Below the pieces are notes generated by a model, which did not search any database, was not told the DNA's origin, and saw only the letters and a list, made by a program, of their open reading frames with translations. Source: Oscillospiraceae bacterium (GTDB lineage Bacteria; Bacillota; Clostridia; Oscillospirales; Oscillospiraceae). Taken from it: a DNA stretch of 64,000 nt. The DNA is taken from the NCBI GenBank assembly GCA_017469115.1, contig JAFUGY010000099.1:12079-76078 (forward strand), written 5' to 3'. The translations under genes were made by a program, and so were the position numbers. Shown in pieces: positions 46,106 to 64,000 of this stretch. Position 1 is the first letter of the stretch. Each line of letters opens with the position of its first letter.

Positions 46106-46468
46106 ATGCACGACGAGGAAATCTATTATCATGATCATGGGGATGGAGTGATCCACAGCCACACGGTGATCCATGGGGAAGAGGGATCAGCGCATGAGCA
46201 TACCCATGCCCATGTACATACGCAAACCAAGGTTGTTGTCAATCGCCTGGCAAGAGCAATCGGCCATCTGGAGCATGTGAAACGGATGGTAGAAGAGGGG
46301 CGGGATTGCACGGAAGTTTTGATTCAGCTTGCCGCGGTGCGCTCAGCCTTAAACAGCACAGCAAAAATCATTATCAAAGACCATATTGAGCACTGCATCA
46401 CAGATGCCGACAGCGGAAGCGAAGAAAGCCTGAAGGAGCTCAACGAGGCAATAGATAAGTTTATTTAA
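46106..46468 (+). CDS. csoR: CsoR/RcnR-family metal-sensing repressor with His-rich N-terminal extension
   Basis: 120 aa. The core 'RLARAIGHLEHVKRMVEEGRDCTEVLIQLAAVRSALNSTAKIIIKDHIEHC' carries the x-C-H-C ligand pattern. The N-terminal ~40 aa contain 11 His. Confidence 0.8.
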   Translation: MHDEEIYYHDHGDGVIHSHTVIHGEEGSAHEHTHAHVHTQTKVVVNRLARAIGHLEHVKRMVEEGRDCTEVLIQLAAVRSALNSTAKIIIKDHIEHCITDADSGSEESLKELNEAIDKFI

Positions 46469-48740: not shown

Positions 48741-48756
48741 GGCAGCCCTCCTTTCT

Positions 48757-48799
48757 GAGAAAAATAACAGAAGAGAACAGAGAAACCTATTCTCTTCTG
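48757..48799 (-). terminator. internal terminator-like hairpin between nrfA and resB
   Basis: Minus strand reads CAGAAGAGAA-taggtttctctg-TTCTCTTCTG followed by TTATTTTTCTC, immediately before the resB SD (AAAGGAGG). Confidence 0.55.
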
Positions 48800-48879
48800 C
48801 CGAAAGAGATCTGATTTGTTTCGTGTTCTATGAGGCTAAAACACAAAAAAGGGGGTGTTTGGCAACTGAATACGATCCT

Positions 48880-50160: not shown

Positions 50161-50174
50161 CGTCCATTTCCCCC

Positions 50175-50990
50175 TTAAGTGGAAGCTTCCGGTTTTTTAA
50201 AACCGAGCGGAAGGGTAATAACCTTGGAGGGGCATTTTTCGGCGCATTTGCCGCATTGCACACAGTTTTCATAGGTGACGCGGGCGAGGTTATCGGTCAC
50301 GTGGATGGCATCGTGCTCGCATTGCCTGACGCACATCGCGCATCCGATGCACCCGGCCGTGCAAACTTTCTTGACCAGTGGCCCTTTGTCCCTGCTGGAG
50401 CACTGCACCGAAACATGTTTGCTCTCTGGGACAAGGTCAATCAGGCTGCGAGGGCATGCCTTTGCGCATAGGCCGCAGCCGACGCATTTCATGCGGTGTA
50501 CAACTGCGACTCCGTTGATTACGTGGATGGCGTCATGAGGGCAGGCAGCCACGCAGGAGCCGAATCCCAGGCAGCCAAAGCTGCATTCCGTCACAGGGAT
50601 CCCTGCGAATACGGCGCTGCGGCAGTCCTGAATGCCGACGTAGTTGCCCTGATTGTGGGTGACGTCGCAGTCTCCTTTGCACTGTACGAATGCAACCTTC
50701 CGCTCTACATCCTCTGCGGTAGTGCCCATGATGGCAGCGACTTTTGCCGCTACCGGTGCACCCCCCACAGGGCAGCCGTTTACGGGCGCTTGGCCGGAAA
50801 CGATTGCCGCAGCCATGGCATCGCAACCTGCAAAGCCGCATGCACCGCAGTTGTTGCCCGGGAGGCATTCACGCACGGCTGTCTCACGCTCATCTACTTC
50901 CACGTGGAATTTTTTCCCTGTATAGACGAGCCCATACCCTACAATAATACCGATAATGGTGATAACCAGAGTAGTGAGTAATATGATCAT
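50175..50990 (-). CDS. rnfB: Rnf complex subunit B (polyferredoxin)
   Basis: 271 aa with an N-terminal TM helix, 'LPGNNCGACGFAGCDAMAAAIV...GCPVGG' and several CxxCxxCxxxCP ferredoxin motifs. Confidence 0.9.
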   Translation of the reverse strand: MIILLTTLVITIIGIIVGYGLVYTGKKFHVEVDERETAVRECLPGNNCGACGFAGCDAMAAAIVSGQAPVNGCPVGGAPVAAKVAAIMGTTAEDVERKVAFVQCKGDCDVTHNQGNYVGIQDCRSAVFAGIPVTECSFGCLGFGSCVAACPHDAIHVINGVAVVHRMKCVGCGLCAKACPRSLIDLVPESKHVSVQCSSRDKGPLVKKVCTAGCIGCAMCVRQCEHDAIHVTDNLARVTYENCVQCGKCAEKCPSKVITLPLGFKKPEAST

Positions 50991-51003
50991 AAAGCTCCTC
51001 CTA

Positions 51004-51582
51004 TCAGAATTTCAGACTTGAGAAGCCCATGAAAGCGATGGACATCAATGCCGCGGAAATCAACACAATTGGAGCGCCGCGAAGAGGGGCGGGAATGTCC
51101 TCCTCGTGGATTCTGGAGCGGATGCTGGCGAGGAGAACAATGGCAATGGTATAACCGACTGCCGTTCCGAACCCGCTGAGAACGCTCTGGATAAAGTTAT
51201 ATCCATCCTGCACATTTGTCAGCGCAACACCGAGTACGGCGCAGTTTGTGGTGATCAGCGGGAGATAGATCCCAAGTGCCTTGTAAATGGCAGGAGAGGT
51301 TTTCTTCAGGAACATCTCGACGATCTGAACGAGAGCTGCGATAACAAGGATGAAGACGATGGTCTTCATAAAGTCCATTCCGAGAGGGGCGAGAATATAG
51401 TCATACAAAAGGTTTGCAACGGCAGAAGCGATTGTGATGACGAAGATAACGGCTACACCCAGGCTGGCAGAAGCCTTGATTTGCTTGGAAACGCCGAGGA
51501 AGGAACAGATGCCGAGGAACTGATTGAGAACAACATTGTTGATCAACGCGCTTGTGATCACGATAAGAATCAGGCTTTTCAT
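51004..51582 (-). CDS. rnfA: Rnf complex subunit A
   Basis: 192 aa with 'NNVVLNQFLGICSFLGVS' and 'LPLITTNCAVLGVAL'. Both conserved Cys are present. Confidence 0.92.
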   Translation of the reverse strand: MKSLILIVITSALINNVVLNQFLGICSFLGVSKQIKASASLGVAVIFVITIASAVANLLYDYILAPLGMDFMKTIVFILVIAALVQIVEMFLKKTSPAIYKALGIYLPLITTNCAVLGVALTNVQDGYNFIQSVLSGFGTAVGYTIAIVLLASIRSRIHEEDIPAPLRGAPIVLISAALMSIAFMGFSSLKF

Positions 51583-52268
51583 TTCTCAGCGTCTCCTTCC
51601 TCTTTTTCACATGGGGAAGCACAATTACTGCAGCAGCCGTCACATCCGCTTTCCACAAGCTTTTTCTGCCGGGTTTTGATACCAATGGCATTCATAATTG
51701 TGATGATAAAGGCAATGACGAGGAATGCTCCCGGAGGCTGAACAAAGATGCCGATGGGCGGAATGCTCTCCGGCAGAATCTGAGCTCCGAACAGCGTTCC
51801 GTTGCCGATGAGCTCACGGATGGAGCCCGCAATGGTAAGAGAAATGGTGAAGCCAAGGCCCATCCCCAGACCATCCATGGCGGAAACGCCGGGTTCATTT
51901 TTGTTGGCATAAGCTTCCGCGCGGCCGAGGATAATGCAGTTGACGACGATCAGTGGGATATAAATGCCGAGGGCTTCGTAAAGCGAGGGAAGATAAGCTT
52001 CAATCAGCAGTTCTGCTACCGTGACGAGAGAGGCCACAATCACGATGTAAGCCGGAAGACGGACTTCGTCCGGGATCGCTTTGCGCAGGATGGAAATAAC
52101 AATATTGGAGAGAATCAGAACGGCTGTGGTAGAAAGCCCCATGCCGATGCCATTGATGGCGCGGGTTGAAACGGCAAGCGTCGGGCACATGCCGAGCATC
52201 AGAATCATGGTCGGATTTTCTTTGACAATACCGTTATAGAGACGTTCCAGATATTTATTCATCTTCAC
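51579..52268 (-). CDS. rnfE: Rnf complex subunit E (with Cys-rich C-terminal tail)
   Basis: 229 aa with 'NPTMILMLGMCPTLAVST' and 'IPLIVVNCIILGRAEA'. The C-terminal tail is 'SGCDGCCSNCASPCEKEE'. Confidence 0.92.
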   Translation of the reverse strand: MKMNKYLERLYNGIVKENPTMILMLGMCPTLAVSTRAINGIGMGLSTTAVLILSNIVISILRKAIPDEVRLPAYIVIVASLVTVAELLIEAYLPSLYEALGIYIPLIVVNCIILGRAEAYANKNEPGVSAMDGLGMGLGFTISLTIAGSIRELIGNGTLFGAQILPESIPPIGIFVQPPGAFLVIAFIITIMNAIGIKTRQKKLVESGCDGCCSNCASPCEKEEGDAEK

Positions 52269-53848
52269 ATCGCTCCCTTCACAACAGAATAATAGAAGTC
52301 AAGCGCTGCGTTAACAGCATTGACGACTGCCCCGGATGTGGTGGACGCGCCGGATACGGAGTCGATTTCATTTTCAGCCGTAGAACCGCCGGTTTTGTTC
52401 AGAATAAACTGCGTCACGGTTTTCCCACTGAACTGGTCTTTAAAGGCGGGTTCGCCGGCTCGCATACCCATGCCGGGGGTTTCGTTGAGCTCAGTAAAGG
52501 AGATACCGGTAACCGTCCCGTTGCTGTCAATGCCGACGGAAAGCGTGATGTCACCGTCAAAACCGTCTCCACTTGTTACGCTGATTGCATGACCGATGAT
52601 AGATCCGGTGTCATCTTTTCCGATGACGACCTCCCGGATCATGGCACGGCCGAAGTTCGTGCCGTAAATGTCTCCGTCGAGATCTGCCAGTGCTTCTTCA
52701 ACAGCATCATCAAATTCAAAGGAAGCCGCATCCGGTAGAACGGAACGGTAGGAGGCAGCTTTGGCAGCCCGTTTCTGTGCTTCAATGGTGTCCTTCGTCA
52801 TAGCGTAGACGCCGCTGAGAGCAATGCCCGAGATGAGTGCAATCACCGTCAGCACCACAACAGGCTTCGGGATGCTGTCTTTCAGGGATTTCTTTGCTCC
52901 GGCTTCTCCGCTGCGCATTGCAATTGCCTTTCTGGTATAGGCAAATGGCTTCGGGTAGATGAACATATCAATCAGGGGCACAAACAGGTTACCGATGATA
53001 ATGGAATAACTGAAAGAGTCGGATGCGCCGCTTTTGACGCGGAAAAGCCCGCCAAGCACACCGATGATGATGCCATAGACCATTTGCCCGAGCTTGCTGA
53101 CCGGAGATGTGGCATAATCAGATGCCATAAAGAATGCTCCCATGACGACACCGCCGCCGCAGATATGAGCCAACAAATATTTTGGGTCAAATCCCTGACC
53201 GCCGAAGAGCCCCATAAAAACGGTAAAGGAGATCAGAACGGAAAAGCAGATTTCACCGTGAATGATATCCATAGCCCACAGAACAAGCCCGCCGAGGAGC
53301 ATGCAGGCAGTGGAACTGCCGATTACGTCATTCGGCACACCGAGGAACATTTTCGTAATGTTGACGGCTTTGCCCTGCATCAGCATTGCCACCGGGGTGG
53401 CGGAGGAAACGCCGTCAACTGTATAAGTCGTCATGAGGGTGCCGAATGAGATCAGCAGGAAGCACCTTGCTGCAAGAGCGGGGTTCACAAAATTTTTTCC
53501 GAGACCACCGAAACAGCATTTCACAATCAGAATTGCAAATACCGAGCCAAGGATCGGAAGAAACAGAGGAACGCTGGGGGAGAGAGTCAAAGCCAGCATC
53601 AATCCGGTGATAACTGCGCTGCCGTCCTTCCAGGTGTCCGGTTTTTTGGCAAAGCGGTCAAAGAGTAATTCCGTCAACACGGCTGCGACCACCGAACAAG
53701 CCGCAACCAGAAAAGCGTGGAATCCGTTGATGGCGATGCCTACAATGGTTGCCGGGAGCATGGAAAGAATGACGGCCCGCATGATAAACATAGTCGTCCA
53801 TCTGTCCCTTACATGAGGCACGGGCGAGATATTCAATGTTTGATTCAT
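52265..53848 (-). CDS. rnfD: fused Rnf subunits D and G
   Basis: The start at MNQTLNISP forms an ATGA overlap with the rnfC stop. The RnfD part has 'GLGKNFVNPALAAR', 'DGVSSATP' and 'MASDYATSP'. A TM helix is followed by an RnfG FMN-binding domain: 'ETPGMGMRAGEP' and 'IDSVSGASTTSGAV'. Confidence 0.88.
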   Translation of the reverse strand: MNQTLNISPVPHVRDRWTTMFIMRAVILSMLPATIVGIAINGFHAFLVAACSVVAAVLTELLFDRFAKKPDTWKDGSAVITGLMLALTLSPSVPLFLPILGSVFAILIVKCCFGGLGKNFVNPALAARCFLLISFGTLMTTYTVDGVSSATPVAMLMQGKAVNITKMFLGVPNDVIGSSTACMLLGGLVLWAMDIIHGEICFSVLISFTVFMGLFGGQGFDPKYLLAHICGGGVVMGAFFMASDYATSPVSKLGQMVYGIIIGVLGGLFRVKSGASDSFSYSIIIGNLFVPLIDMFIYPKPFAYTRKAIAMRSGEAGAKKSLKDSIPKPVVVLTVIALISGIALSGVYAMTKDTIEAQKRAAKAASYRSVLPDAASFEFDDAVEEALADLDGDIYGTNFGRAMIREVVIGKDDTGSIIGHAISVTSGDGFDGDITLSVGIDSNGTVTGISFTELNETPGMGMRAGEPAFKDQFSGKTVTQFILNKTGGSTAENEIDSVSGASTTSGAVVNAVNAALDFYYSVVKGAM

Positions 53849-55194
53849 TTCTTCCCTCCCACTGCCGCGCGCTTCTGCGCAAGTATTTCTGCTTTCGTCC
53901 GCATAAAGGTCTGTGTTAAAGGCCGCTTGGCCGGGCAGATATAGCTGCAGCAGCCGCACTGGATACACTCAAGCCCGTAGAGCTTCTTTTCATAGCGCTC
54001 CAGATCTCCTGCCTGCACGGCATCAGCCAGCATTTGCGGTAGAAGCCCCACCGGGCATACTGTTGTGCACCTTCCGCACCGCAGGCACGACGTCATGATA
54101 GACGCTGCAACCTCGCTTTGATCCACTGTCACGAGGGCGACGCCGCTGCTTGTTTTCTGAATCGGCACATCGAGGTTCGGAATCGCGATGCCCATAATCG
54201 GCCCGCCGACGATGGCTTTTTTTACAACCGCGCCTTCTTTAAGGCCGCCGGCTGCTTCGATCAATTCAGAAAAGCTCATCCCATCCCGCACGATAAAGTT
54301 ACCCGGGGTTTTCACGGCATCCCCCGTTAAGGTGAACGTATGGGTGAACAACGGTTCCAGATAGGCGACAGCACGGTCAATGGCATAAATGGTGCAGGCA
54401 TTCTGCACAATGCATCCGACCTCTGCCGGAAGCATGGAGGAGGGATAATTGATCCCGGCGACGGTTTCAATCAGCATTTTTTCCCCGCCCTGGCCGTATT
54501 TTGCTTTGGCTGCGAGCACAGAGAGTTTATCATTCCCAGCCGAAGCCTTCCGCATGGCTTCAATGGCTTCGGGCTTGTTGTCTTCAATCACGATAACGCC
54601 TTCAGCGTTCGGAAACAGGCGGAGCATTAGAGAAAGGCCTTCTGCAATGGAGTCTGCCTGGGAGCGCATCAGCTGATCCGTCCCGGTGAGATAAGGCTCA
54701 CATTCCGAACCGTTGGCAATGACATAACGGATAGCATCGGGATTTTTGGGAGAAAGCTTTACATGGGTGGGGAATCCTGCCCCGCCCAGGCCAACAATCC
54801 CGGCCTCCCGGATTCTCCGGAGAATTTCTTCTTTGCTGAGAGAAGAAATATCCTGCCTTACTCCGATGCCTTCCATGCGGGAATACTGCCCGTCATTGTC
54901 GACGACAATGCATTCAACCATCTGTCCGTTCTGTACACGGCGTTTTTCCACAGCCTTCACTTTACCCGAGCAGGAAGAGATGACATGCGCGGAAATCAAA
55001 CCATCGGCTTCTCCGATTTTCTGGCCGGCGAGAACTTCATCCCCCTTTTTTACGAGAGGTTTAGCGGGTTTGCCGATATGCTGCAAAAGGGGGAAAACCA
55101 TTTCACCTTTCGCATTCAGGACACGCAGCGGGACATCGCGTGTCAGCTCCTTGTGGCTGATCGGATGTACACCGCCGCGAAACGTGTTTTTCAC
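53845..55194 (-). CDS. rnfC: Rnf complex subunit C
   Basis: 'TFRGGVHP', 'GLGGAGFP', 'NGSECEPYLT' and two ferredoxin motifs 'CLRCGRCTTVCP' / 'CIQCGCCSYICP'. The start was chosen at GTG 55194 (AAAGGAG with 8-nt spacer). The longest ORF reaches 55203. Confidence 0.92.
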   Translation of the reverse strand: MKNTFRGGVHPISHKELTRDVPLRVLNAKGEMVFPLLQHIGKPAKPLVKKGDEVLAGQKIGEADGLISAHVISSCSGKVKAVEKRRVQNGQMVECIVVDNDGQYSRMEGIGVRQDISSLSKEEILRRIREAGIVGLGGAGFPTHVKLSPKNPDAIRYVIANGSECEPYLTGTDQLMRSQADSIAEGLSLMLRLFPNAEGVIVIEDNKPEAIEAMRKASAGNDKLSVLAAKAKYGQGGEKMLIETVAGINYPSSMLPAEVGCIVQNACTIYAIDRAVAYLEPLFTHTFTLTGDAVKTPGNFIVRDGMSFSELIEAAGGLKEGAVVKKAIVGGPIMGIAIPNLDVPIQKTSSGVALVTVDQSEVAASIMTSCLRCGRCTTVCPVGLLPQMLADAVQAGDLERYEKKLYGLECIQCGCCSYICPAKRPLTQTFMRTKAEILAQKRAAVGGKK

Positions 55195-55255
55195 GAACCT
55201 CACTCCTTTCAGAGATTTAAGAGAACTGCAGGTGAGAGAAACAGCAGTTTTGTCT

Positions 55256-55434: not shown

Positions 55435-55469
55435 ACTTTCAATTATTTTTATGAGCAGGTGTGCGGTCT

Positions 55470-56865: not shown

Positions 56866-57864
56866 ATGAAAAAAATTCTCGCAATCACGCTTCTTCTCTG
56901 CATGATGCTCGTCATGGGTGCATGGTCTGCTTCCGGAGAAGAGTACACTCTTGGTATGGGTGTTGTTGTCAGCACGGATTCTTCCGATACCAACAATGCA
57001 CAGGTTGATGCAACGGTTGCTGCCGTTGTTCTCGACAAGGACGGCAAGATTGCTGCCTGCCGGATTGACTGCGCACAGAGCAAGATGGATGTTACCGACG
57101 GCGAAGTCGACGCAGAGAAGGAATTCCTCTCCAAAGTCGAGCTGAAGGAAGACTACAACATGGTCAAGTTCTCCGATGCTACTCTCGAGTGGTATCAGCA
57201 GGCTGCCAACTTCGAGGAGTTCTGCGTCGGTAAGACGGCTGACGAAGTCCTCGCCACTGAAACTGTTCTCAACGATGAAGGCCACACCGTTTTTGTCGAT
57301 GAGACGCTCCACGCTTCTGTTTCTATTTCTGTTGCTGACATGCAGCAGGCTGTTGCCAAGGCATGTGCTGACGATCAGGCTGTTACCTTCACTGCCAACG
57401 GTGATGTAACCTTCGGTCTCGCCTGCAACACGGAAGCCACCGAGTCTGTTGCCGCAACCGACGATGCTGACGGTGTTGTCAAGATGTACACCGATTTTGC
57501 TGCTGCTGTTGTGGATGCTGACGGCAAAGTTCTCGCAAACCTCCAGGATGCTATCCAGCCTCAGATCGTCATTGATATTGACGGCGAGATTGGCGACATT
57601 ACCTTCCGCGGCACAAAGCGTGAGCTGAAGGAAGACTATAACATGGTCAAGTTCTCCGATGCTACTCTCGAGTGGTATCAGCAGGCTGCCAACTTTGAAG
57701 CCTATGCCAACGGCAAGACGGCTGAAGAGCTCGCCGGCGTTGAGACGGTTGTCAACGAAGAAGGCCACCAGGTCTTTGCAGATGAAACGCTGCTTGCTTC
57801 CGTTTCCATCAGCATCGACGGTATGACCGACGTCCTTGTCAAGGCAATCGGCTACGCACGCTGA
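56866..57864 (+). CDS. exported tandem FMN-bind-like domain protein (PplA-like) with non-canonical flavinylation motif
   Basis: The start at MKKILAITLLL has AGGAG upstream and a signal peptide. Two homologous ~150-aa halves each contain '(E/R)LKEDYNMVKFSDATLEWYQQAANFE..GKTA(D/E)E(V/L)' and end in 'DETL(H/L)ASVSIS', where FMN_bind domains carry D..SGAT.TS. Confidence 0.55.
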   Translation: MKKILAITLLLCMMLVMGAWSASGEEYTLGMGVVVSTDSSDTNNAQVDATVAAVVLDKDGKIAACRIDCAQSKMDVTDGEVDAEKEFLSKVELKEDYNMVKFSDATLEWYQQAANFEEFCVGKTADEVLATETVLNDEGHTVFVDETLHASVSISVADMQQAVAKACADDQAVTFTANGDVTFGLACNTEATESVAATDDADGVVKMYTDFAAAVVDADGKVLANLQDAIQPQIVIDIDGEIGDITFRGTKRELKEDYNMVKFSDATLEWYQQAANFEAYANGKTAEELAGVETVVNEEGHQVFADETLLASVSISIDGMTDVLVKAIGYAR

Positions 57865-57888
57865 ACTTATCATCAATAAAAACAGGAG

Positions 57889-58965
57889 ATGGTTTCAATT
57901 CATTCCGGCAGATGGTTTCGTTTCTTTATCCTGATGATGGCGGCTGCGCTCCTTCTGGCGGGCTGCGGCAGTCAGGTTCAGGAAACCAAACCCATTGAGC
58001 CGAAAGGGAAGGTTTATTTTACCTATTTTGATACGGTCTCCTACATCTATGATTATTCTGGCGATTCGGCAGAACGGTTTGACGACCGTTCTGCCGAAAC
58101 ATCACTTCTGCTGGAAGAATATCACCGTCTTTTTGATATTTACCACGAATATGCAGGCATCAACAACCTCTGCACACTGAACAAAAAGGCAGGGGGGGAA
58201 GCCCTTCCTGTTGACGAAAAGCTGATCGATTTTCTCCTGTATGCCAAAGAGATGGAGAATTTGACACACGGAGAAATGAATGTGATGCTCGGTGCTGTCC
58301 TGCGTTTGTGGCATGAATGCCGGGAGGAAGCGTCCGAGTCCCCCTCCAAGGCCAGAATTCCGACAGAAGAGGCTCTGTACGCAGCTTCTGCCCATACGTC
58401 GATTGATCTGCTGGAGATCGACCCGGAGAAGAAAACTGTGCGTATTTCTGACCCGGAAGCATCCATAGATGTCGGAGCACTGGGGAAGGGCTATGCCACA
58501 GAAATGGCAGCCCGTATGCTCGAGGAGAAAGGTGCTCTTGGCTATGTGCTCAACATCGGGGGGAATATCCGCATCATCGGGTCCCGCCCGGACGGTACCG
58601 GCTGGAAGACCGGCATTCGCAATCCGTCTGATCCTGACGGTGCTTTTGCCATGCAGATCTATATTTCCGACACGGCATGCGTCAGTTCCGGCGTCTATGA
58701 GCGGTTTTTTGTGGCGGAAGGAAAACGCTGGCATCACATCATCGACCCGGATACGCTTTATCCGGCTGCAACTTTCAGTGCACTGACGGTCATCACAAAA
58801 GACAGCGGCCTTGCTGATGCCCTCTCCACGGCGTTATTCTGTATGGATTACGAGCAGAGTCGCAGCCTGGTGGATTCGCTGGACGGGGTTGAGGTATGCT
58901 GGTTCTTCCCGGATGGAGAACAGCGAATGACGGAAGGATTTTCCAAACTCATCGTAAAAGAATAG
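57889..58965 (+). CDS. apbE: FAD:protein FMN transferase (ApbE family) lipoprotein
   Basis: 358 aa with lipobox 'LLLAGCGS', 'GEMNVMLGAV', 'IDVGALGKGYA', 'NIGGNIR' and 'ACVSSGVYERFF...HHIIDPDT'. Confidence 0.88.
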   Translation: MVSIHSGRWFRFFILMMAAALLLAGCGSQVQETKPIEPKGKVYFTYFDTVSYIYDYSGDSAERFDDRSAETSLLLEEYHRLFDIYHEYAGINNLCTLNKKAGGEALPVDEKLIDFLLYAKEMENLTHGEMNVMLGAVLRLWHECREEASESPSKARIPTEEALYAASAHTSIDLLEIDPEKKTVRISDPEASIDVGALGKGYATEMAARMLEEKGALGYVLNIGGNIRIIGSRPDGTGWKTGIRNPSDPDGAFAMQIYISDTACVSSGVYERFFVAEGKRWHHIIDPDTLYPAATFSALTVITKDSGLADALSTALFCMDYEQSRSLVDSLDGVEVCWFFPDGEQRMTEGFSKLIVKE

Positions 58966-59032
58966 GTTTTTCGTATACAAAGATTCTATAGATACAGTTC
59001 CTTATTATTAACAGGAAAGCAGGGATTCATCC

Positions 59033-60370
59033 ATGGCTTTATTTACCAAAAAAATCTCAGCTGTAAAAGTTCCGCATCATAAAAATACAGCTGCACTCGC
59101 ATCTGTTGTTGCACCGCCACCTCCGGAAGTGCTCATTCCCACAAACATGCAGTCCGGAGATGCATGTGTGCCTGTTGTCTCAGTCGGAGATACGGTGAAA
59201 GTCGGGCAGGTGATTGCCAAGGCAGGCGGCAGAAATTCAGTTCCGCTGCATGCAACGGTATCCGGTACCGTAACAGCCATTGAACCGTATAAACTGACCG
59301 GTCGTGCCGCTGAGGCGATCCGCATTCAGTCTGACGGGAAAATGGAACGCGACCCCAACCTCGCGCCTCCCGTTGTCAGTGATCTTGACGGCTTTCTTCA
59401 GGCTGTGAATGATTCCGGCGTGGTCGGTCTTGGCGGCGCAGCATTCCCGGTATGGGCCAAGCTGGACGCAATTCGGAAAAATCCAATCCCCACAGTGCTT
59501 GTCAATGGGGCAGAGTGTGAGCCCTTTATCACAAGTGACCACCGCATGATGCTCGAGCATGCCGACTGGATTAAAAAAGGCATCGAGCTTCTGAAGGAAT
59601 ATCTCCATTCCGAGGAGTTCATCATCGGCATCGAAAAGAATAAGCCGGATGCCATTGAGCATCTGACACAGTTCTTTGCCGAAGACAACACCGTGCGCGT
59701 GATGCCGCTGGAAAGCGTCTATCCCCAGGGGGCCAAGCAGGTTCTGCTCTACAATGCCACCGGCAAAGTTGTCGGACCCGGACAGCGTCTTGCATCTCTC
59801 GGCGTAATCATCATCAATGTTACAAGCCTTGCCATGGTCGGCCGCTATTTTACCGACGGGACGCCTCTTGTCAGCCGCAGCATTACGGTGGACGGTTCTG
59901 CCGTTTCCGAGCCGAAAAATATCGAGTTCCCGATCGGAACGCCGATTTCCTACGTTTTTGAACAGTGCGGCGGGTTGAAGAATTCCCCACGTAAAATCAT
60001 CTACGGCGGCGCGATGATGGGCAAAACGGTGACGGATCTGAACGCCCCTGTCCTCAAGGCAACCAATGCCATTCTAGCTTTTGGCGAAGAGGACAGCAAA
60101 AAGAAGCCGGCCGCTCCCTGCATTCACTGCGGAAGATGCGTCGAAGCCTGCCCCCTGAATCTGAATCCGACGGAGTTCTCCCACGCGATGGAAATTGATG
60201 ACGAGGATCGCCGTGCAGAAATTCTGACCCGAGAGCAGGTCTCCCTTTGCATGGAATGCGGATGCTGCTCCTTTGTCTGCCCGGCTCACAGGCCGCTGGC
60301 GGAAAACAATACCGCGGCCAGAGGCTTCATCCGGAAGTACAATGCCGCAAAGAAAGAAGGAGGGAAGTGA
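59033..60370 (+). CDS. rnfC: RnfC-like subunit (second cluster)
   Basis: 445 aa with 'GLGGAAFP', 'NGAECEPFITSDHR' and ferredoxin motifs 'CIHCGRCVEACP' / 'CMECGCCSFVCP'. Confidence 0.88.
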   Translation: MALFTKKISAVKVPHHKNTAALASVVAPPPPEVLIPTNMQSGDACVPVVSVGDTVKVGQVIAKAGGRNSVPLHATVSGTVTAIEPYKLTGRAAEAIRIQSDGKMERDPNLAPPVVSDLDGFLQAVNDSGVVGLGGAAFPVWAKLDAIRKNPIPTVLVNGAECEPFITSDHRMMLEHADWIKKGIELLKEYLHSEEFIIGIEKNKPDAIEHLTQFFAEDNTVRVMPLESVYPQGAKQVLLYNATGKVVGPGQRLASLGVIIINVTSLAMVGRYFTDGTPLVSRSITVDGSAVSEPKNIEFPIGTPISYVFEQCGGLKNSPRKIIYGGAMMGKTVTDLNAPVLKATNAILAFGEEDSKKKPAAPCIHCGRCVEACPLNLNPTEFSHAMEIDDEDRRAEILTREQVSLCMECGCCSFVCPAHRPLAENNTAARGFIRKYNAAKKEGGK

Positions 60371-60371
60371 T

Positions 60372-61310
60372 ATGGAAGTGAATCTGATCTCTTCAGCTTC
60401 TCCGCATATCCACAGTGGTTCTTCCAGCCGCCTGATTATGGCTGATGTGATTCTTGCACTGGTTCCTGCAGCCATTGCTTCCGTTGTCCTGTTTGGCACT
60501 TATGCCCTTTGGATGATCGTGGTGTGTGTGGCTTCTGCGGTCATTTCCGAGTTTGTGTTCAATTCCGTTATCGGAAAAGAACAGACGCTCGGCGATCTCA
60601 GTGCTGTGGTGACGGGGCTTCTCCTTGCACTGAATCTCAGCACCAATGTTGCGCTCTGGCAGTGTGCGCTCGGGGCTTGTTTTGCTATCATTGTGGTAAA
60701 ATGCCTGTTTGGAGGCATGGGCAACAACTTTGCCAACCCTGCCATTACTGCCCGTGTGTTTCTGCTTCTTGCCTTCTCCTCTGTCGCAGGCGGGGCCAAT
60801 CCTGTCTTTCGTGCGGCAGCAGATGCCGTCAGTTCCGCAACCCCGCTGGAACTGATTGCCCAGAAAAGCACCGATGCTCTCCCCGCACTGAAAGATATGT
60901 TCCTCGGCCTGCGTGGCGGTACCATTGGCGAAACGTGCATTCTCGCGCTCCTGGTCGGCTATGTTTATCTGGTTGCCCGCAAGGTGATCAAATGGTACAT
61001 CCCTGCCATCTTCGTATGCACGGTGTTTGTTTGTTCCTGGCTGATTACGGGCAGCCTGAATCTCGCCCTGTACGAGATCCTCTCCGGAGGCCTTGTTCTG
61101 GGGGCAGTGTTTATGGCGACGGATTATGTCACAACACCGATTCATGCCGGTGGGCGGATGCTGTTTGCTCTCGGCTGCGGTCTCATCACAGTGGCGATCC
61201 GTTTCGTGTTCTCCTATCCAGAAGGCGTTTCCTTCTCAATCCTGTTGATGAACATCCTCACTCCGTGGATTGAAAAGCTTACGCGCAACAAGCCGCTGGG
61301 AGGTGTCTGA
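60372..61310 (+). CDS. rnfD: RnfD-like subunit (second cluster)
   Basis: The start at MEVNLISSASPHIH is one nt after the rnfC stop. It contains 'GMGNNFANPAITAR', 'DAVSSATP' and 'MATDYVTTP'. Confidence 0.88.
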   Translation: MEVNLISSASPHIHSGSSSRLIMADVILALVPAAIASVVLFGTYALWMIVVCVASAVISEFVFNSVIGKEQTLGDLSAVVTGLLLALNLSTNVALWQCALGACFAIIVVKCLFGGMGNNFANPAITARVFLLLAFSSVAGGANPVFRAAADAVSSATPLELIAQKSTDALPALKDMFLGLRGGTIGETCILALLVGYVYLVARKVIKWYIPAIFVCTVFVCSWLITGSLNLALYEILSGGLVLGAVFMATDYVTTPIHAGGRMLFALGCGLITVAIRFVFSYPEGVSFSILLMNILTPWIEKLTRNKPLGGV

Positions 61311-61311
61311 T

Positions 61312-62610
61312 ATGGAAGTTAAAAACAATGGTCTGACGAAGGGCCTTTTGACCCTGGTTCTGATTGTAGCCGTTTTTTTCTGCATTCTTTTCGGCATCAA
61401 CTCTTATACTGCCCCCATCATTGAATGGAATGACAACGCTGCTCTTCTGGCTCCTCTTTTCAAGCTTCTGCCCGATGCGCCAGGATTCGAGCTGCTGTAT
61501 GACTATACCGTTCCTGATAATTCTTCCTTGGCAAATATTCCGTCTACTGTGCGGTATATCCATGCCATTGCGGAAAACGGCGGTTATGCCGTTCAGCTTT
61601 CCACAACCGAAGGCTTTACCGGCGACCCGATTGATCTCTCCTTTGCGGTTGATCCCGACGGAAAGATTCTGAACGCTCAGGTAGATGCTTATGCTGATAC
61701 CAAGGATATGGGTGTTGATGACTATCCGCTCACCTATATCGGCCAGGATTCTGCTCTTTCCGATGTCAGCATTGTTGCCGGGGTTACGTATTCTTCTTCT
61801 GCATTCAAACGCGCAATTGCTGACGGCTTCCTGGCTCTGACGGAGAACGGCCTTGTGGCTGAGGGATATAAAGATCCTGTTCAAGCCCTAACGGAAGTCC
61901 TTCCCCTCGTCTTCCCGGGGATTGCCAATAATGCCGGTGTTGTTCAGGCGGAAGAAACACAACCCACCGGTGCGCTTCTCAGTTCTGCAATGAAATCCAC
62001 CATCGATACCGGTATGGCGTACTTTGCCGGCGAAGGAGATGATCTCTATCTGATTACGGTCAATGCCTTCGGCGTGGTCAAAGCTTACGATACCAAGGGT
62101 CGTGACATTACCGATTCTGCTCCTGCAGAAGCTCTGGAGCAGGCAAAGGCAGATGCCGAAGCTTCTGCTGCTGACTTCCTGAAAAAAGATACCCGGGCAT
62201 TCAAAAAGCTGACGGGAGACGATATGGAGCTCACCGAGCTTTCTCTCAACACCTTTAATTCCGTGACGGGTGCTTACAAGCTTCTCTCCGGCGGTAATAC
62301 CTATTATGGCTTCACTTCCCGTACTTTTGGCTTTGGTGATATGGCAATTGTCACACGCTATGTGCTGGATGAAAACGGCGCAATCGTGAAAATGAATGCC
62401 GATGAGCTGATCCTCGAAAAGGACTACTTCTCCAATTACACGCTGGATGAAGCCTCTTACAAAGAAGGTTTCCAGGGTCTCACAGAGAGCACCTTTACCG
62501 GGGATGAAACGCTGATCACCGGTGCTACCATGACTTCAAATGCCGTGAAGTCTGCAGTCCGGGACATCTTTGAAGCCTTTCACGATCTCAAAGAGAACGG
62601 AGGGATCTGA
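61312..62610 (+). CDS. rnfG: RnfG-like subunit with duplicated FMN-binding domain (432 aa)
   Basis: The start at MEVKNNG is followed by a TM helix. The first FMN_bind-like domain ends 'VSIVAGVTYSSSAFKRAI'. The second ends with the canonical 'LITGATMTSNAVKSAV'. Confidence 0.75.
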   Translation: MEVKNNGLTKGLLTLVLIVAVFFCILFGINSYTAPIIEWNDNAALLAPLFKLLPDAPGFELLYDYTVPDNSSLANIPSTVRYIHAIAENGGYAVQLSTTEGFTGDPIDLSFAVDPDGKILNAQVDAYADTKDMGVDDYPLTYIGQDSALSDVSIVAGVTYSSSAFKRAIADGFLALTENGLVAEGYKDPVQALTEVLPLVFPGIANNAGVVQAEETQPTGALLSSAMKSTIDTGMAYFAGEGDDLYLITVNAFGVVKAYDTKGRDITDSAPAEALEQAKADAEASAADFLKKDTRAFKKLTGDDMELTELSLNTFNSVTGAYKLLSGGNTYYGFTSRTFGFGDMAIVTRYVLDENGAIVKMNADELILEKDYFSNYTLDEASYKEGFQGLTESTFTGDETLITGATMTSNAVKSAVRDIFEAFHDLKENGGI

Positions 62611-62612
62611 TC

Positions 62613-63272
62613 ATGACGGAACATAAATCTTTGCGTGCCTTTGCAGCGGAAAATCCAGCTCTGATCCTTGTTCTGGGGATTTGTCCGCTCTATGCTTCTA
62701 CGGTGGACGTCCGTGCAGCCTTTGCCATGGGATGCCTTGTGTTGGCAGCGCTGCTGGTTTCCGGGTTGATCATGGCGCTTCTGAAGCGCTGCATCCCCCA
62801 GCAGTTTACCCTCCCCGCAGCCTTTCTTGTCTGTGCCGGGGTTGTTTCAGTGTTTGAGTTGCTCTTCCATGCCTGGTTTCCGGATATTTACAAGATTCTC
62901 GGAGTCTATGTTTCTGCCCTATCCGTTAATCTTCTGCTGGTTGCCGCTGCGGCAGACAGCTGTGAGCAAAAGGCCGAAAAGGCAATCGGTCAGGCTTTGC
63001 TGCTGGGGTTCATTTTCCTCGCAAGTCTGCTTGCCGTTGCTGTCATTCGCGAAGTCTTTGGCAACGCAAGCTTTGCCGGGATTGAAATTCCCTCTCTGAA
63101 GGACTATCGAATCAATGTGCTCCTCCAACCCGGCGGTGCGCTGCTGATCGGGGCTTTTCTTGCCGCTGCGTTAAATGCAGTTGCTGCAAAAGCACTCTCG
63201 TCCGATTCTTTCTCCGGATGGTTCGGTTCTTCCTTCCCGAATGCTGAAAAAGAAGAGGAGAGTGAATCATGA
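62613..63272 (+). CDS. rnfE: RnfE-like subunit (second cluster; one of two conserved Cys lost)
   Basis: 219 aa. 'ENPALILVLGICPLYAST' retains its Cys, but 'SALSVNLLLVAAA' replaces the ...VVNC..LG motif. Confidence 0.8.
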   Translation: MTEHKSLRAFAAENPALILVLGICPLYASTVDVRAAFAMGCLVLAALLVSGLIMALLKRCIPQQFTLPAAFLVCAGVVSVFELLFHAWFPDIYKILGVYVSALSVNLLLVAAAADSCEQKAEKAIGQALLLGFIFLASLLAVAVIREVFGNASFAGIEIPSLKDYRINVLLQPGGALLIGAFLAAALNAVAAKALSSDSFSGWFGSSFPNAEKEEESES

Positions 63273-63844
63273 TGGAGTCCTATACTGTAAAATCTTTGAT
63301 TCTGTTGATCATTGGCGGTGCACTGGCGGGCAACTACGCGCTGGAAAAGCTGATGGGTGCTGCGCCTGTTTTCGGTCTTTCCCGTAAGGAGAAAGCTCTT
63401 CCTGCCCTTGGCATCGGCGTGCTGGTTGTTATGCTCCTTACGGCGCCCTTGCTCCGGGCAGTGCACACGGCTTTCCTTGCCCCTGCAAATCTGCTCTATT
63501 TGCAGAATCTCTGCTTTACCGCGCTGATTCTTTGTGTAGCCTATCTGGTTTCTCTGCTTGCCAAAGCTGTTCTGAAGAAGCCTCTGGGGCCGTATTTCCT
63601 GATTCTTGCGGTCAACAGCGCTGTCTTTGGGCTGGCAGTCAACGTTATCACGGACGGGCTCTCCCTCACCGCAACCATTCTGACGGCCTTTGGCGTCGGC
63701 CTCGGATATTTGTTTACACTGTTTGTATTGGCCGGTGTGCGGGAAAAGGTTGACGATTTTTATGTGCCGAAGGCATTTCGCGGGCTCCCGGTTCAGCTGC
63801 TGGCAGCGGCAATCATTTCCATGGCGCTGCTTGGGTTCAAATGA
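63269..63844 (+). CDS. rnfA: RnfA-like subunit (second cluster; both conserved Cys lost)
   Basis: 191 aa. 'LEKLMGAAPVFGLS' replaces ..FLG.C.FLGVS, and 'LILAVNSAVFGLAV' replaces ..TNCAVLGVAL. Confidence 0.8.
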   Translation: MMESYTVKSLILLIIGGALAGNYALEKLMGAAPVFGLSRKEKALPALGIGVLVVMLLTAPLLRAVHTAFLAPANLLYLQNLCFTALILCVAYLVSLLAKAVLKKPLGPYFLILAVNSAVFGLAVNVITDGLSLTATILTAFGVGLGYLFTLFVLAGVREKVDDFYVPKAFRGLPVQLLAAAIISMALLGFK

Positions 63845-64000
63845 GTTTTGACCGTAAAGTACTCCGCCGGGATCTCCTGCTGATTCTGTTCTTCCTGCTT
63901 CTTTCTGCTGCGATGTTCGCTTTTTCGCACTTCCGGCAGCAAGAAGGAGGATGGGCAGTTGTCACTGTCAATTCCAAAGAAGTAGCCCGGTATTCTCTCC
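63841..64000 (+). CDS. NusG-domain-II (DUF1312)-like membrane protein, 5' part only (runs off window)
   Basis: ATGA overlap with the rnfA-like stop. The sequence is 'MSFDRKVLRRDLLLILFFLLLSAAMFAF...GGWAVVTVNSKEVARYSL', a TM anchor followed by the characteristic '(V/I)...(V/I)..(D/N)GKEV.RYSL' start of NusG_II proteins. Confidence 0.5.
   Translation, partial: MSFDRKVLRRDLLLILFFLLLSAAMFAFSHFRQQEGGWAVVTVNSKEVARYSL

What the first reader, a model, noticed from the sequence alone, without database searches (positions are those of the whole stretch)
59033..64000. Second Rnf-like cluster (C-D-G-E-A) with no rnfB at the expected position and 3 of 4 RnfA/RnfE iron-sulfur cysteines replaced
**Seen:**
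- The genes are tightly coupled: TGAtATG junctions, a 2-nt gap before rnfE, and ATGA overlaps at the last two junctions.
- The gene after rnfA is a NusG_II/DUF1312-like membrane protein, not rnfB.
- Rnf cluster 1 in the same window has GICSFLG/TTNCAVLG (RnfA) and GMCPTLA/VVNCIILG (RnfE).
- The second cluster has GAAPVFG/AVNSAVFG (RnfA-like) and GICPLYA/SVNLLLV (RnfE-like).
- The RnfC-like subunit keeps GLGGAAFP and both 4Fe-4S motifs. The RnfD-like subunit keeps the SSAT flavinylation site.

**Established:** in Rnf and Na+-NQR, the paired cysteines of the A/E (NqrE/D) subunits ligate the intramembrane Fe-S centre. That centre connects the ferredoxin (RnfB) side to RnfG.

**Inference:** this paralogue probably cannot run the ferredoxin branch. 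It may be an NADH -> RnfC -> RnfD -> RnfG outward electron-export (or import) module working with the adjacent ApbE and PplA-like genes.
Basis: partly seen in the sequence, partly recalled or inferred. Interest (0 to 1): 0.8.

Follow-up and report, generated by a model that had tools for sequence, protein, structure and literature searches.

The report
Rnf complex without its ferredoxin branch
A gut/rumen Clostridia lineage carries a conserved, apparently undescribed Rnf-derived complex that has lost its ferredoxin-side subunit (RnfB) and the membrane iron-sulfur centre, and that most likely passes electrons from NADH outward along covalently bound flavins.

Summary
Window 59033-64000 encodes tightly coupled rnfC-D-G-E-A.

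- **Cysteines.** Aligned to solved Rnf/Nqr structures, three of the four [2Fe-2S] ligand cysteines are replaced: RnfA-like A32 and S117, RnfE-like L107. Only RnfE-like C24 remains.
- **No rnfB.** A 23-kb contig of the same organism shows EetA-like (NusG_II) and EetB (FAD-export) genes downstream, then unrelated genes.
- **A clade, not an oddity.** In 40 non-redundant related loci (about 38 GTDB species, Oscillospiraceae and relatives) the order is two-repeat secreted protein, ApbE, RnfC, D, G, E, A. None has rnfB. None has both RnfA cysteines, and no locus keeps more than two of the four ligand cysteines. Among 41 canonical loci, every readable ligand position is Cys and 38 have rnfB. The clade is monophyletic (100/100 bootstraps). 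One unrelated metagenomic lineage shows the same joint loss.
- **What is kept.** RnfC and RnfD keep every cofactor site. RnfG is duplicated into two FMN-binding domains, each with the acceptor threonine. The A/E pair stays under purifying selection.

Most likely mechanism (inferred): NADH to RnfC, RnfD, di-flavin RnfG and on to extracytosolic acceptors, with no ferredoxin branch. I found no description of this in the literature. It is a new variant of a known kind.

The parts
56866..57864 (+). Secreted two-repeat protein ('RepLipo', 332 aa). Most homologues have a lipobox. It is conserved immediately upstream of ApbE throughout the clade and is probably a remote, paired FMN-binding (FMN-bind2-like) protein, with candidate acceptor Ser at S153 and S314.
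   Evidence: No Pfam, NCBIfam or PDB-sequence hit. More than 1698 homologues, all named 'hypothetical'. AF2 model pLDDT 91 with two pseudo-symmetric repeats. No Foldseek PDB hit at E <= 1e-3. Repeat 1 vs repeat 2: hhalign 100%. Pooled profile vs FMN_bind profile: P 2e-3 local and 2e-4 global, reached by 0 of 60 shuffles, with the conserved [ST] aligned on the flavinylated Thr.
57889..58965 (+). ApbE-family FAD:protein FMN transferase with an N-terminal lipoprotein-like signal. It would flavinylate RnfD, RnfG and possibly the two-repeat protein.
   Evidence: PF02424, E 9e-61. Present upstream of rnfC in every clade locus whose upstream sequence is held.
59033..60370 (+). RnfC-like NADH-binding subunit (445 aa) with all cofactor sites intact.
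   Evidence: TIGR01945 407 bits against a cutoff of 246. 9eri_C E 3e-87. GLGGAAFP at residue 132. CIHCGRCVEACP at 363 and CMECGCCSFVCP at 406.
60372..61310 (+). RnfD-like membrane subunit (312 aa). Keeps the flavinylated Thr (T157, codon 60840-60842) and the riboflavin ligands.
   Evidence: TIGR01946 274 bits against a cutoff of 207. The alignment to 9eri_D keeps N123, D249, F245, I274, R275 and Y280 equivalents and the SSAT motif.
61312..62610 (+). Duplicated RnfG (432 aa): TM helix, FMN_bind domain 1 (AGVT, T159), a folded ~110-aa middle domain, and FMN_bind domain 2 (TGAT, T406).
   Evidence: hhalign of each domain to canonical RnfG gives 99.1% and 98.8%, and both Thr align with the flavinylated Thr. 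The AF2 model matches 7zc6_G and 9eri_G with probability 1.00. Every complete clade RnfG reading frame has two domains.
62613..63272 (+). RnfE-like subunit (219 aa). First ligand Cys kept (C24, 62682-62684), second replaced by Leu (L107, 62931-62933).
   Evidence: PF02508. Alignment to 7zc6_E and 9eri_E. In the clade, site 2 is never Cys and site 1 is Cys in 31 of 40 loci. dN/dS 0.12 against L006.
63269..63844 (+). RnfA-like subunit (191 aa). Both ligand Cys replaced: A32 (63362-63364) and S117 (63617-63619).
   Evidence: Alignment to 7zc6_A, 9eri_A and 7xk3_E. None of the 120 nearest database homologues keeps both Cys. dN/dS 0.16 against L006.
63841..64000 (+). Start of an EetA-like NusG_II/DUF1312 membrane protein, cut by the window end. 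On the extension contig it is 123 aa and is followed by EetB (PF07456, FAD-export ECF-S component).
   Evidence: PF07009 E 1.7e-29 and PF07456 E 2.3e-42 on L001. EetB function from PMC9973259. DUF1312 in the Listeria gene lmo2639; that lmo2639 lies in the EET locus as eetA is from memory.
50175..55203 (-). Comparison only: canonical Rnf cluster 1 (rnfC, rnfD-G fusion, rnfE, rnfA, rnfB) with all four ligand Cys. It holds the only rnfB in the window.
   Evidence: It lies far from cluster 2 in the RnfC+RnfD tree.

Best explanation
Cluster 2 encodes a five-subunit Rnf derivative (RnfC, D, G, E, A) that has lost the ferredoxin half of the Rnf electron loop.

**Shown by sequence comparison**
- There is no RnfB.
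- The intramembrane [2Fe-2S] of the A/E pair cannot be ligated.
- RnfC keeps its NADH/FMN site and two [4Fe-4S] motifs.
- RnfD keeps its riboflavin ligands and its covalent-FMN threonine.
- RnfG has become a two-FMN-domain protein.
- The operon carries its own flavinylation machinery: ApbE, plus the EetA/EetB FAD-export genes.
- It also carries a conserved secreted two-repeat protein.

**Inferred**
- Electrons run one way: cytoplasmic NADH, RnfC FMN, RnfC Fe-S clusters, RnfD riboflavin, RnfD FMN, RnfG FMN-1, RnfG FMN-2.
- From there they pass on, possibly via the two-repeat protein, to an extracytosolic or extracellular acceptor.
- This would be a quinone- and cytochrome-independent way to reoxidise NADH.
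- The cluster-less A/E pair is kept mainly as the membrane scaffold that holds RnfD and the RnfG anchor.
- The redox-driven Na+ pumping step assigned to the A/E cluster is gone.
For: **Cys ligands replaced**
- Shown by alignment to solved structures.
- The pattern extends to 40 non-redundant loci. No locus keeps more than two of the four Cys, several keep none, and 0 of 40 have rnfB within 10 kb.
- Among 41 canonical loci, every readable ligand position is Cys and 38 have rnfB.
- No substitute Cys or His column is conserved.

**Residues near the cluster**
- Residues that Kumar et al. 2025 tie to the A/E cluster, Na+ binding and RnfB docking are invariant in canonical loci.
- They are lost in the clade: RnfA E88, T110, T111 and R154, and RnfE L103 and R113.

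**No rnfB locally**
- None downstream on the extended contig, and none elsewhere in the window except in cluster 1.

**Intact C/D/G route**
- RnfC and RnfD sites are kept.
- RnfG has two FMN_bind domains, each with the acceptor Thr.

**Selection and phylogeny**
- Purifying selection acts on all genes. dN/dS for window vs L006: C 0.02, D 0.05, G 0.07, E 0.12, A 0.16.
- The clade is monophyletic in 100/100 bootstraps and nested among canonical Clostridia-type Rnf.
- Some of those canonical relatives (L028, L036, L038) already carry a multi-domain RnfG, EetAB, ApbE and the two-repeat protein.
- An independent lineage, L092, lost rnfB and all four Cys together.

**Literature frame**
- The A/E cluster is the only link between RnfB and RnfG (PMC12174285; PMC11889175).
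- Multi-flavinylated RnfG has been proposed to feed extracytosolic acceptors (PMC8238504).
- EetB supplies FAD to ApbE and colocalises with Rnf in Clostridia (PMC9973259).
Against: - No terminal acceptor or reductase is encoded in the conserved module. A crude neighbour clustering found nothing else conserved.
- Flavinylation of the two-repeat protein is unproven. Its motif (A-S/G-C/V-S/T) departs from [ST]GA[ST], and its link to FMN_bind is weak (hhalign probability 15-23%).
- Retention of A/E under purifying selection has no positive explanation here. RnfA N112 and RnfE E115 (34 of 40) and R/K67 (33 of 40) stay conserved in the clade, so some ion-binding role may survive.
- All members are MAG or metagenome sequences. 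There is no expression, biochemical or cultured-strain evidence.
- An unlinked partner encoded elsewhere in these genomes cannot be excluded.
- dS is near saturation (about 1) in the dN/dS estimates.
Confidence: 0.55

Rival explanations
1. Energy-coupled variant. The cluster-less A/E pair, or RnfD, still translocates Na+/H+. Electron flow between NADH and the outside flavins is then coupled to the ion gradient, either pumping or gradient-driven, instead of being a simple uncoupled exporter.
For: A/E are under purifying selection. RnfE E115 and R/K67, RnfA N112 and RnfE V106 remain conserved in most of the clade. RnfD keeps the residues proposed for Na+ binding in NqrB/RnfD: I274, R275, Y280 and F245 equivalents. 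Whether the Na+ path runs through RnfD/NqrB or through A/E is still debated.
Against: [quoted passage not shown] RnfA T110, T111 and E88 are lost. The window's own RnfE has lost both R67 and E115.
Confidence: 0.15
2. Dedicated supply line. The complex reduces one specific extracytosolic enzyme or process encoded elsewhere (for example a flavinylated reductase, iron reduction for uptake, or oxidative-damage repair). It is not a general extracellular electron transfer route.
For: Flavinylated systems often serve defined extracytosolic reductases (PMC8238504). The conserved two-repeat protein could be a specific adaptor.
Against: No reductase, iron transporter or Msr-type gene is conserved next to the cluster in the 40 loci.
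Confidence: 0.15
3. Inward direction. The module takes electrons from an outside donor through the flavins to reduce NAD+.
For: The RnfG-RnfD-RnfC segment runs in this direction in forward Rnf turnover.
Against: Flavin-level donors are less reducing than NADH, so the reaction would need energy input, and the recognised coupling element (the A/E cluster) is gone. No hydrogenase or formate dehydrogenase type donor is in the module.
Confidence: 0.07
4. Still a ferredoxin:NAD+ oxidoreductase, using an unlinked RnfB (for example that of cluster 1) and a non-cysteine-ligated centre in A/E.
For: The same window holds a complete Rnf with rnfB. RnfE C24 is retained in 31 of 40 loci.
Against: Several members have Gly/Gly and Gly/Ala at all four positions, and no alternative ligand column exists. 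The canonical-invariant RnfB-docking residue R154 is not conserved. Loss of rnfB and loss of the Cys coincide in two independent lineages.
Confidence: 0.04
5. A decaying, non-functional operon remnant.
For: RnfG, RnfE and RnfA score far below the NCBIfam cutoffs. A/E evolve 3-7 times faster than C/D.
Against: Intact, translationally coupled reading frames. dN/dS 0.02-0.16. The gene order is conserved across about 38 species, and some members are seen on 1000 or more contigs.
Confidence: 0.03

Closest known systems
Canonical Rnf complex (RnfABCDGE; structures 7ZC6, 8AHX, 9ERI)
   Same: Homologous RnfC, D, G, E and A in the Clostridia gene order. RnfC NADH/FMN and 2x[4Fe-4S] sites, the RnfD riboflavin ligands and covalent FMN Thr, and the RnfG covalent FMN Thr are all present. 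ApbE and EetB accompany it, as in many Clostridia.
   Different: No RnfB. Two to four of the four [2Fe-2S] ligand Cys are replaced. Residues invariant around the cluster and at the RnfB docking face are lost. RnfG is duplicated. G, E and A fall below the family cutoffs. It therefore cannot run ferredoxin-to-NAD+ electron transfer by the known path.
Na+-NQR, and the hypothetical rnfCDGEA intermediate in its origin (Reyes-Prieto et al. 2014, PMC4014512)
   Same: An Rnf-derived operon that lost rnfB while keeping the C-D-G-E-A core order.
   Different: NQR kept the A/E (NqrE/D) cluster, hollowed out RnfC into cofactor-less NqrA, and recruited NqrF and a quinone site. Here the opposite half was kept: RnfC stays functional, the A/E cluster is lost, and no new input module was recruited.
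Two-subunit NQR/RNF-like systems (Meheust et al. 2021; Huang et al. 2024)
   Same: The proposed logic is the same: unidirectional NAD(P)H to extracytosolic FMN transfer using an RnfD/NqrB-type membrane protein and an RnfG/NqrC-type flavoprotein.
   Different: Those have only two proteins (RnfD-like fused to a PF00175 NAD-binding domain, plus RnfG-like), lack the RnfD flavinylation site, and occur mainly in Actinobacteria and CPR. This one keeps RnfC, a flavinylated RnfD and the A/E pair.
RNF clusters with multi-flavinylated RnfG (Meheust et al. 2021)
   Same: An RnfG with more than one FMN_bind domain, proposed to hand electrons to alternative extracytosolic acceptors. Relatives of this kind (L028, L036, L038) branch among the canonical relatives of the clade.
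   Different: Those clusters were defined by the presence of RnfB, and the outward path was seen as a side branch. Here the outward path is the only one left.
Flavin-based extracellular electron transfer of Listeria (Ndh2/DMK/EetA/EetB/FmnB/PplA)
   Same: An ApbE-type flavin transferase, EetA- and EetB-like genes, and a secreted protein with two putative flavin domains next to a membrane NADH-oxidising system.
   Different: There is no Ndh2 or quinone step. The transmembrane transfer would be done by RnfC/D/G. The two-repeat protein is not a recognisable PplA or FMN_bind (Pfam) member.

Membership tests
Rnf complex (ferredoxin:NAD+ oxidoreductase, RnfABCDGE) | RnfB polyferredoxin subunit encoded with the complex | tested here: not met
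   No RnfB homologue in the cluster, in the 10 kb downstream on L001, or in any of 40 clade loci.
Rnf complex (ferredoxin:NAD+ oxidoreductase, RnfABCDGE) | Four Cys (two in RnfA, two in RnfE) ligating the intramembrane [2Fe-2S] | tested here: not met
   Window: A32, S117, C24, L107. In the clade, RnfA never has both Cys, no locus keeps more than two of the four, and several have none.
Rnf complex (ferredoxin:NAD+ oxidoreductase, RnfABCDGE) | RnfC with an NADH/FMN site and two [4Fe-4S] motifs | tested here: met
   TIGR01945 above cutoff. GLGGAAFP and 2x CxxCxxCxxxCP.
Rnf complex (ferredoxin:NAD+ oxidoreductase, RnfABCDGE) | RnfD with a flavinylated Thr and riboflavin ligands | tested here: met
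   SSAT T157. N123 and D249 equivalents conserved. TIGR01946 above cutoff.
Rnf complex (ferredoxin:NAD+ oxidoreductase, RnfABCDGE) | RnfG FMN_bind domain with a flavinylated Thr | tested here: met
   Two such domains, T159 and T406. The protein scores below the TIGR01947 cutoff.
Rnf complex (ferredoxin:NAD+ oxidoreductase, RnfABCDGE) | Ferredoxin:NAD+ oxidoreductase activity coupled to Na+/H+ translocation | not testable with these tools
   Requires biochemistry.
Na+-NQR | NqrF (FAD/[2Fe-2S] NADH dehydrogenase subunit) and a cofactor-less NqrA | tested here: not met
   No NqrF-like gene in the cluster. The C subunit scores as RnfC with all cofactor motifs, and as NqrA only at 41-48 bits against cutoffs of 320 or more.
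Two-subunit NQR/RNF-like system (Meheust 2021) | NqrB/RnfD domain fused to a PF00175 NAD-binding domain | tested here: not met
   RnfD-like is 312 aa with PF03116 only. A separate RnfC is present.
RNF with multi-flavinylated RnfG (Meheust 2021 operational class) | RnfG with more than one FMN_bind domain | tested here: met
RNF with multi-flavinylated RnfG (Meheust 2021 operational class) | RnfB (K03616) in the gene cluster (their definition of an RNF cluster) | tested here: not met
Listeria-type flavin-based EET locus | ApbE/FmnB plus EetA and EetB | tested here: met
   PF02424 in the window. PF07009 and PF07456 on the extension. EetB is PF07456. The EetA-DUF1312 link rests on lmo2639 plus memory of the locus map.
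Listeria-type flavin-based EET locus | PplA-type lipoprotein with two FMN_bind domains | tested here: inconclusive
   No Pfam or PDB hit. A remote profile match to FMN_bind lies above all 60 shuffles and is in register with the flavinylated Thr.
Listeria-type flavin-based EET locus | Ndh2 and demethylmenaquinone synthesis genes | tested here: not met
   Not present in the conserved module of the 40 loci. The rest of the genomes was not examined.

The most novel reading that the evidence does not exclude
The cluster-less RnfA/E pair is not a mere scaffold and still moves Na+/H+. These bacteria would then run an ion-coupled, quinone- and cytochrome-free NADH-to-outside flavin wire. Because nature has deleted the A/E iron-sulfur centre while keeping RnfD intact, the complex would be a ready-made system to settle whether the ion path of Rnf/Nqr runs through RnfD/NqrB or through RnfA/E.
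Probability: 0.15. Interest if true: 0.9.

Novelty: new variant of a known kind. Interest (0 to 1): 0.7.

Why it matters
**Bioenergetics.** Reviews state that the membrane cofactors of Rnf and Nqr are strictly conserved. This clade breaks that rule in at least two independent lineages, yet keeps the A/E proteins under selection. It separates the NADH-RnfC-RnfD-RnfG half of the machine from the RnfB-A/E half in nature. That bears directly on the open dispute over where the ion is pumped.

**Evolution.** It is a living example of the 'rnfCDGEA after rnfB loss' state postulated for the origin of Na+-NQR, but resolved in the mirror-image way: RnfC kept, A/E cluster lost.

**Gut and rumen microbiology.**
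- The clade is common. It covers about 38 GTDB species of Oscillospiraceae and relatives, and at least 70 clusters at 50% identity.
- One member was seen on 1000 or more contigs.
- It would give such fermenters a way to dump NADH electrons outside the cell without needing a quinone or cytochrome step.

**Annotation.** Databases currently label these proteins as ordinary RnfG or 'Rnf-Nqr domain' proteins. Pathway reconstructions would therefore wrongly credit the organisms with a second ferredoxin:NAD+ pump.

Tried and rejected
**Attempts to identify the two-repeat protein**
- Pfam, NCBIfam and PDB sequence searches found nothing.
- A permissive Pfam scan of 37 homologues gave only scattered noise.
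- Foldseek of a confident model against the PDB gave no hit at E <= 1e-3.
- Narrow-profile hhalign to RnfG gave 0-1% probability.
- Only the broadened, pooled profiles gave a signal.
- A direct comparison with the published FMN-bind2 example (NTW96865.1) was impossible, because sequences cannot be fetched by accession.

**Literature**
- Searches for an RnfB-less Rnf (phrases such as 'lacking RnfB', rnfCDGEA, Rnf-like complex) found only the evolutionary hypothesis of Reyes-Prieto 2014 and the two-subunit NQR/RNF-like systems.

**Neighbour analysis**
- All-against-all clustering of neighbours in the clade loci was polluted by spurious antisense ORFs in these GC-rich genomes. It shows only that no further gene is widely conserved.

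**Technical**
- The first bootstrap script timed out. It was redone with a fast distance routine.

**Hypotheses rejected**
- Pseudogene decay, rejected by dN/dS and conservation.
- Recent duplication of cluster 1, rejected because cluster 1 is far away in the tree.
- Compensating ligands elsewhere in A/E, rejected.
- An insertion within a single RnfG FMN_bind domain. It is a full tandem duplication.

**Not testable here**
- Whether genomes with the RnfB-less cluster always also carry a canonical Rnf. Only the window and L052 show both.

Full report
**1. What is in the window**

On the + strand, 56866-64000 carries a compact gene string.

| Gene | Coordinates | Key evidence |
|---|---|---|
| Secreted two-repeat protein | 56866-57864 | 332 aa, no Pfam or NCBIfam hit |
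| ApbE flavin transferase | 57889-58965 | PF02424, E 9e-61 |
| RnfC-like | 59033-60370 | TIGR01945 407 bits, cutoff 246 |
| RnfD-like | 60372-61310 | TIGR01946 274 bits, cutoff 207 |
| RnfG-like | 61312-62610 | 432 aa, TIGR01947 41 bits, cutoff 102 |
| RnfE-like | 62613-63272 | 99.5 bits, cutoff 213 |
| RnfA-like | 63269-63844 | 101 bits, cutoff 229 |
| NusG_II start | 63841-64000 | cut by the window end |

The junctions are exactly as reported: TGAtATG twice, a 2-nt gap, and two ATGA overlaps.

On the opposite strand, 50175-55203 is a complete canonical Rnf. It comprises rnfC, an rnfD-rnfG fusion, rnfE, rnfA and rnfB, and has all four ligand cysteines.

**2. The cysteines**

phmmer alignments to the subunits of solved complexes place the substitutions squarely on the ligand positions. 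The structures are C. tetanomorphum 7ZC6, A. woodii 9ERI, A. vinelandii 8AHX and V. cholerae NQR 7XK3.
- RnfA-like: GAAP for GICP (A32) and VNSA for TNCA (S117).
- RnfE-like: GICP retained (C24) and VNLL for VNCI (L107).

The literature read here confirms two points (PMC12174285; PMC11889175).
- These four Cys bind the intramembrane [2Fe-2S].
- That cluster is the only bridge between RnfB and the RnfG flavin.

Mutating the Cys abolishes ferredoxin:NAD+ activity and removes two Fe per complex.

**3. No rnfB**

A look-up of the exact RnfA-like protein found a 23-kb contig of the same organism, an Oscillospiraceae MAG, that runs past the window end. After rnfA come:
- a 123-aa NusG_II protein;
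- a 175-aa PF07456 protein;
- then a GHMP kinase, an M20 peptidase, NAD synthase and NAPRTase.

A phmmer sweep with the cluster-1 RnfB finds only cluster 1 in the window, and nothing on the extension.

PF07456 is EetB. It is the FAD-binding ECF-S component that exports FAD to ApbE, and it colocalises with Rnf in 572 Clostridia genomes (PMC9973259). The DUF1312/NusG_II domain is carried by the Listeria gene lmo2639. From my memory of the Listeria EET locus map, lmo2639 is eetA.

The gene after rnfA is therefore a normal Rnf accessory in Clostridia. What is abnormal is that rnfB is not in front of it.

**4. It is a clade**

The 120 nearest database homologues of the RnfA-like protein, down to 45% identity, include one seen on 1000 or more contigs. 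None keeps both RnfA Cys.

A scan of one genome per GTDB species returned 80 loci. I classified them with phmmer against both window clusters.

| Feature | Cluster-2 type (40 non-redundant loci) | Canonical type (41 loci) |
|---|---|---|
| Gene order | two-repeat protein, ApbE, C, D, G (about 430 aa), E, A, usually then EetA/EetB | canonical rnf clusters (rnfCDGEAB or rnfBCDGEA) |
| rnfB within 10 kb | 0 of 40 | 38 of 41 (two misses are fragments at contig ends) |
| RnfA ligand Cys | never both; site 2 is Ser, Gly or Thr | Cys at both sites in all 41 |
| RnfE ligand Cys | site 2 never Cys; site 1 Cys in 31 of 40 | Cys at every readable position (three RnfE are cut at site 1) |
| All four Cys gone | 9 loci (L011, L033, L041, L053, L057, L065, L066, L068, L070) | none |

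- No other Cys or His column is conserved in the clade's A/E.
- Residues invariant in canonical loci are lost in the clade: RnfA E88, T110, T111 and R154, and RnfE L103 and R113.
- RnfA N112 and RnfE V106, E115 (34 of 40) and R/K67 persist.

A profile search of 1.84 billion cluster representatives gave 177 hits at E <= 1e-30. Of the best 150, 72 are full-length without the Cys pair.

**5. Evolution**

NJ trees of concatenated RnfC+RnfD give three results.
- The RnfB-less loci form an exclusive clade in 100/100 bootstraps.
- That clade is nested among canonical Clostridia-type clusters. Some of these (L028, L036, L038) already have a multi-domain RnfG, EetA/EetB, ApbE and the two-repeat protein alongside rnfB.
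- The window's own cluster 1 lies far away, so cluster 2 is not its recent duplicate.

Pairwise dN/dS between the window and L006 (dS is about 1, so values are approximate):

| Gene | dN/dS |
|---|---|
| RnfC | 0.02 |
| RnfD | 0.05 |
| RnfG | 0.07 |
| RnfE | 0.12 |
| RnfA | 0.16 |

Other pairs behave similarly. All genes are maintained, with A/E relaxed several-fold.

Looking up Cys-less representatives outside the clade recovered L092, a 90-kb low-GC contig.
- Its order is rnfC-rnfD-rnfG (single FMN domain)-rnfE-rnfA.
- All four Cys are replaced.
- It has no rnfB, ApbE or EetAB within 10 kb.
- It never groups with the clade (0/100 bootstraps).

The joint loss of rnfB and the ligands has therefore happened at least twice. 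Short contigs L088 and L090 also show non-rnfB genes after a Cys-less rnfA.

**6. The retained half**

- **RnfC-like:** keeps GLGGAAFP and both ferredoxin-type motifs.
- **RnfD-like:** keeps T157 in SSAT, the riboflavin ligands (N123 and D249 equivalents), and the I274, R275, Y280 and F245 equivalents.
- **RnfG-like:** not an RnfG with an insertion. It is a tandem duplication.
  - Residues about 60-190 and about 300-432 each match canonical RnfG by hhalign (99.1% and 98.8%).
  - T159 (AGVT) and T406 (TGAT) sit on the flavinylated Thr.
  - The AF2 model (pLDDT 79) hits RnfG chains of 7ZC6, 9ERI and 8RB8 with probability 1.00.
  - Every complete clade RnfG reading frame has two domains.

Meheust et al. 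2021 already noted multi-flavinylated RnfGs in RnfB-defined clusters and proposed that they feed extracytosolic acceptors.

**7. The two-repeat protein**

- It belongs to a large family of 'hypothetical' proteins: more than 1698 hits, none with a Pfam domain.
- AF2 gives a confident (pLDDT 91) pseudo-symmetric pair of ~160-aa domains.
- Foldseek finds nothing in the PDB.
- Narrow profiles show no similarity to FMN_bind.
- Pooling both repeats from diverse loci against a pooled FMN_bind profile gives scores of 25.6 (local) and 23.5 (global).
  - None of 60 column-shuffled controls reaches these. The control means are 10.8 ± 2.3 and 2.7 ± 1.9.
  - The alignment puts the invariant A-[SG]-[CV]-[ST] motif on the flavinylated Thr.
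- This matches the published description of 'FMN-bind2' domains: about 160 aa, paired through an extended sheet, and without an InterPro signature (PMC11334425).

I rate it as probably, not certainly, a doubly flavinylated protein. 'PplA-like' is thus only weakly supported.

**8. Mechanism**

**Shown**
- The ferredoxin branch (RnfB, A/E cluster) is absent.
- The NADH branch, the extracytosolic flavin sites and the flavinylation/FAD-export machinery are present and conserved.

**Inferred**
- Flow is one-way: NADH, RnfC, RnfD, RnfG FMN-1, RnfG FMN-2, possibly the two-repeat protein, then an external acceptor.
- A/E serve as scaffold.

**Open**
- The acceptor is unknown.
- Ion coupling may or may not survive.

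The mirror-image comparison with Na+-NQR is instructive. NQR is thought to derive from an rnfCDGEA operon after rnfB loss (PMC4014512). It kept the A/E cluster and gutted RnfC. This clade did the reverse.

**9. Novelty**

Full-text searches found no description of an RnfB-less, Cys-less five-subunit Rnf. Meheust's survey defined RNF clusters by RnfB and would have missed it. Source databases name its proteins as ordinary RnfG or 'Rnf-Nqr domain' proteins.

The components and the idea of unidirectional flavin-based export are known. I therefore class it as a new variant of a known kind, of fairly high interest.

Noticed in passing
window 46640-55203 (- strand): Canonical Rnf cluster 1 has a fused rnfD-rnfG gene. 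It is followed directly on the same strand by a cytochrome c552/NrfA-type nitrite reductase (48880-50160) and the system II cytochrome c biogenesis genes ResB and CcsA, with no NrfH-type quinol dehydrogenase between them. This hints at electron delivery from Rnf to NrfA outside the membrane, by analogy with the Methanosarcina Rnf-MmcA pairing.
   Followed up: partly
window 56866-57864; homologues P0121-P0240: The two-repeat secreted protein belongs to a very large family (more than 1698 database hits). Every named member is 'hypothetical' and none has a Pfam domain. It has a confident predicted fold with no PDB match. It may be the 'FMN-bind2' class mentioned but not catalogued by Huang et al. 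2024.
   Followed up: partly
L092:5797-10627 (ENA k141_761077), also L093: A second, phylogenetically separate rnfCDGEA cluster lacks rnfB and all four ligand Cys. It has a single-domain RnfG with a Lys-rich N-terminal extension and an acidic tail, followed by a DUF4015 protein. No ApbE or EetAB is nearby.
   Followed up: partly
representatives P0241-P0390; L086, L088, L090, L091: Many RnfA-like cluster representatives have lost only one of the two Cys (for example GC, TC, YC, SC, CS, CG). Others have lost both while staying closer to canonical RnfA. Cys loss in RnfA/E may therefore be more widespread and stepwise than this one clade shows.
   Followed up: partly
window 55461-56681 (+): A 406-aa membrane protein with a PF10112 (5-bromo-4-chloroindolyl phosphate hydrolysis protein) domain sits between the two Rnf clusters. 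It is present in the close relative L006 but not in the rest of the clade, so it is probably not part of the module.
   Followed up: no
window 51579-52268 (-), C-terminus of cluster-1 RnfE: Cluster-1 RnfE ends in a Cys-rich tail (…CDGCCSNCASPC…). Similar tails occur in roughly a third to two-fifths of both canonical and RnfB-less RnfE sequences. Their function is unknown.
   Followed up: no
L026:7100-9367 and L045:7147-9372: Within the RnfB-less clade, two loci read as a single ~750-aa reading frame covering RnfD plus the two-domain RnfG. This would parallel the D-G fusion of the window's cluster 1, arising independently.
   Followed up: no
window 46106-46468 (+): A CsoR-type metal-sensing repressor (PF02583) with a His-rich N-terminus lies next to the cytochrome c biogenesis genes.
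   Followed up: no
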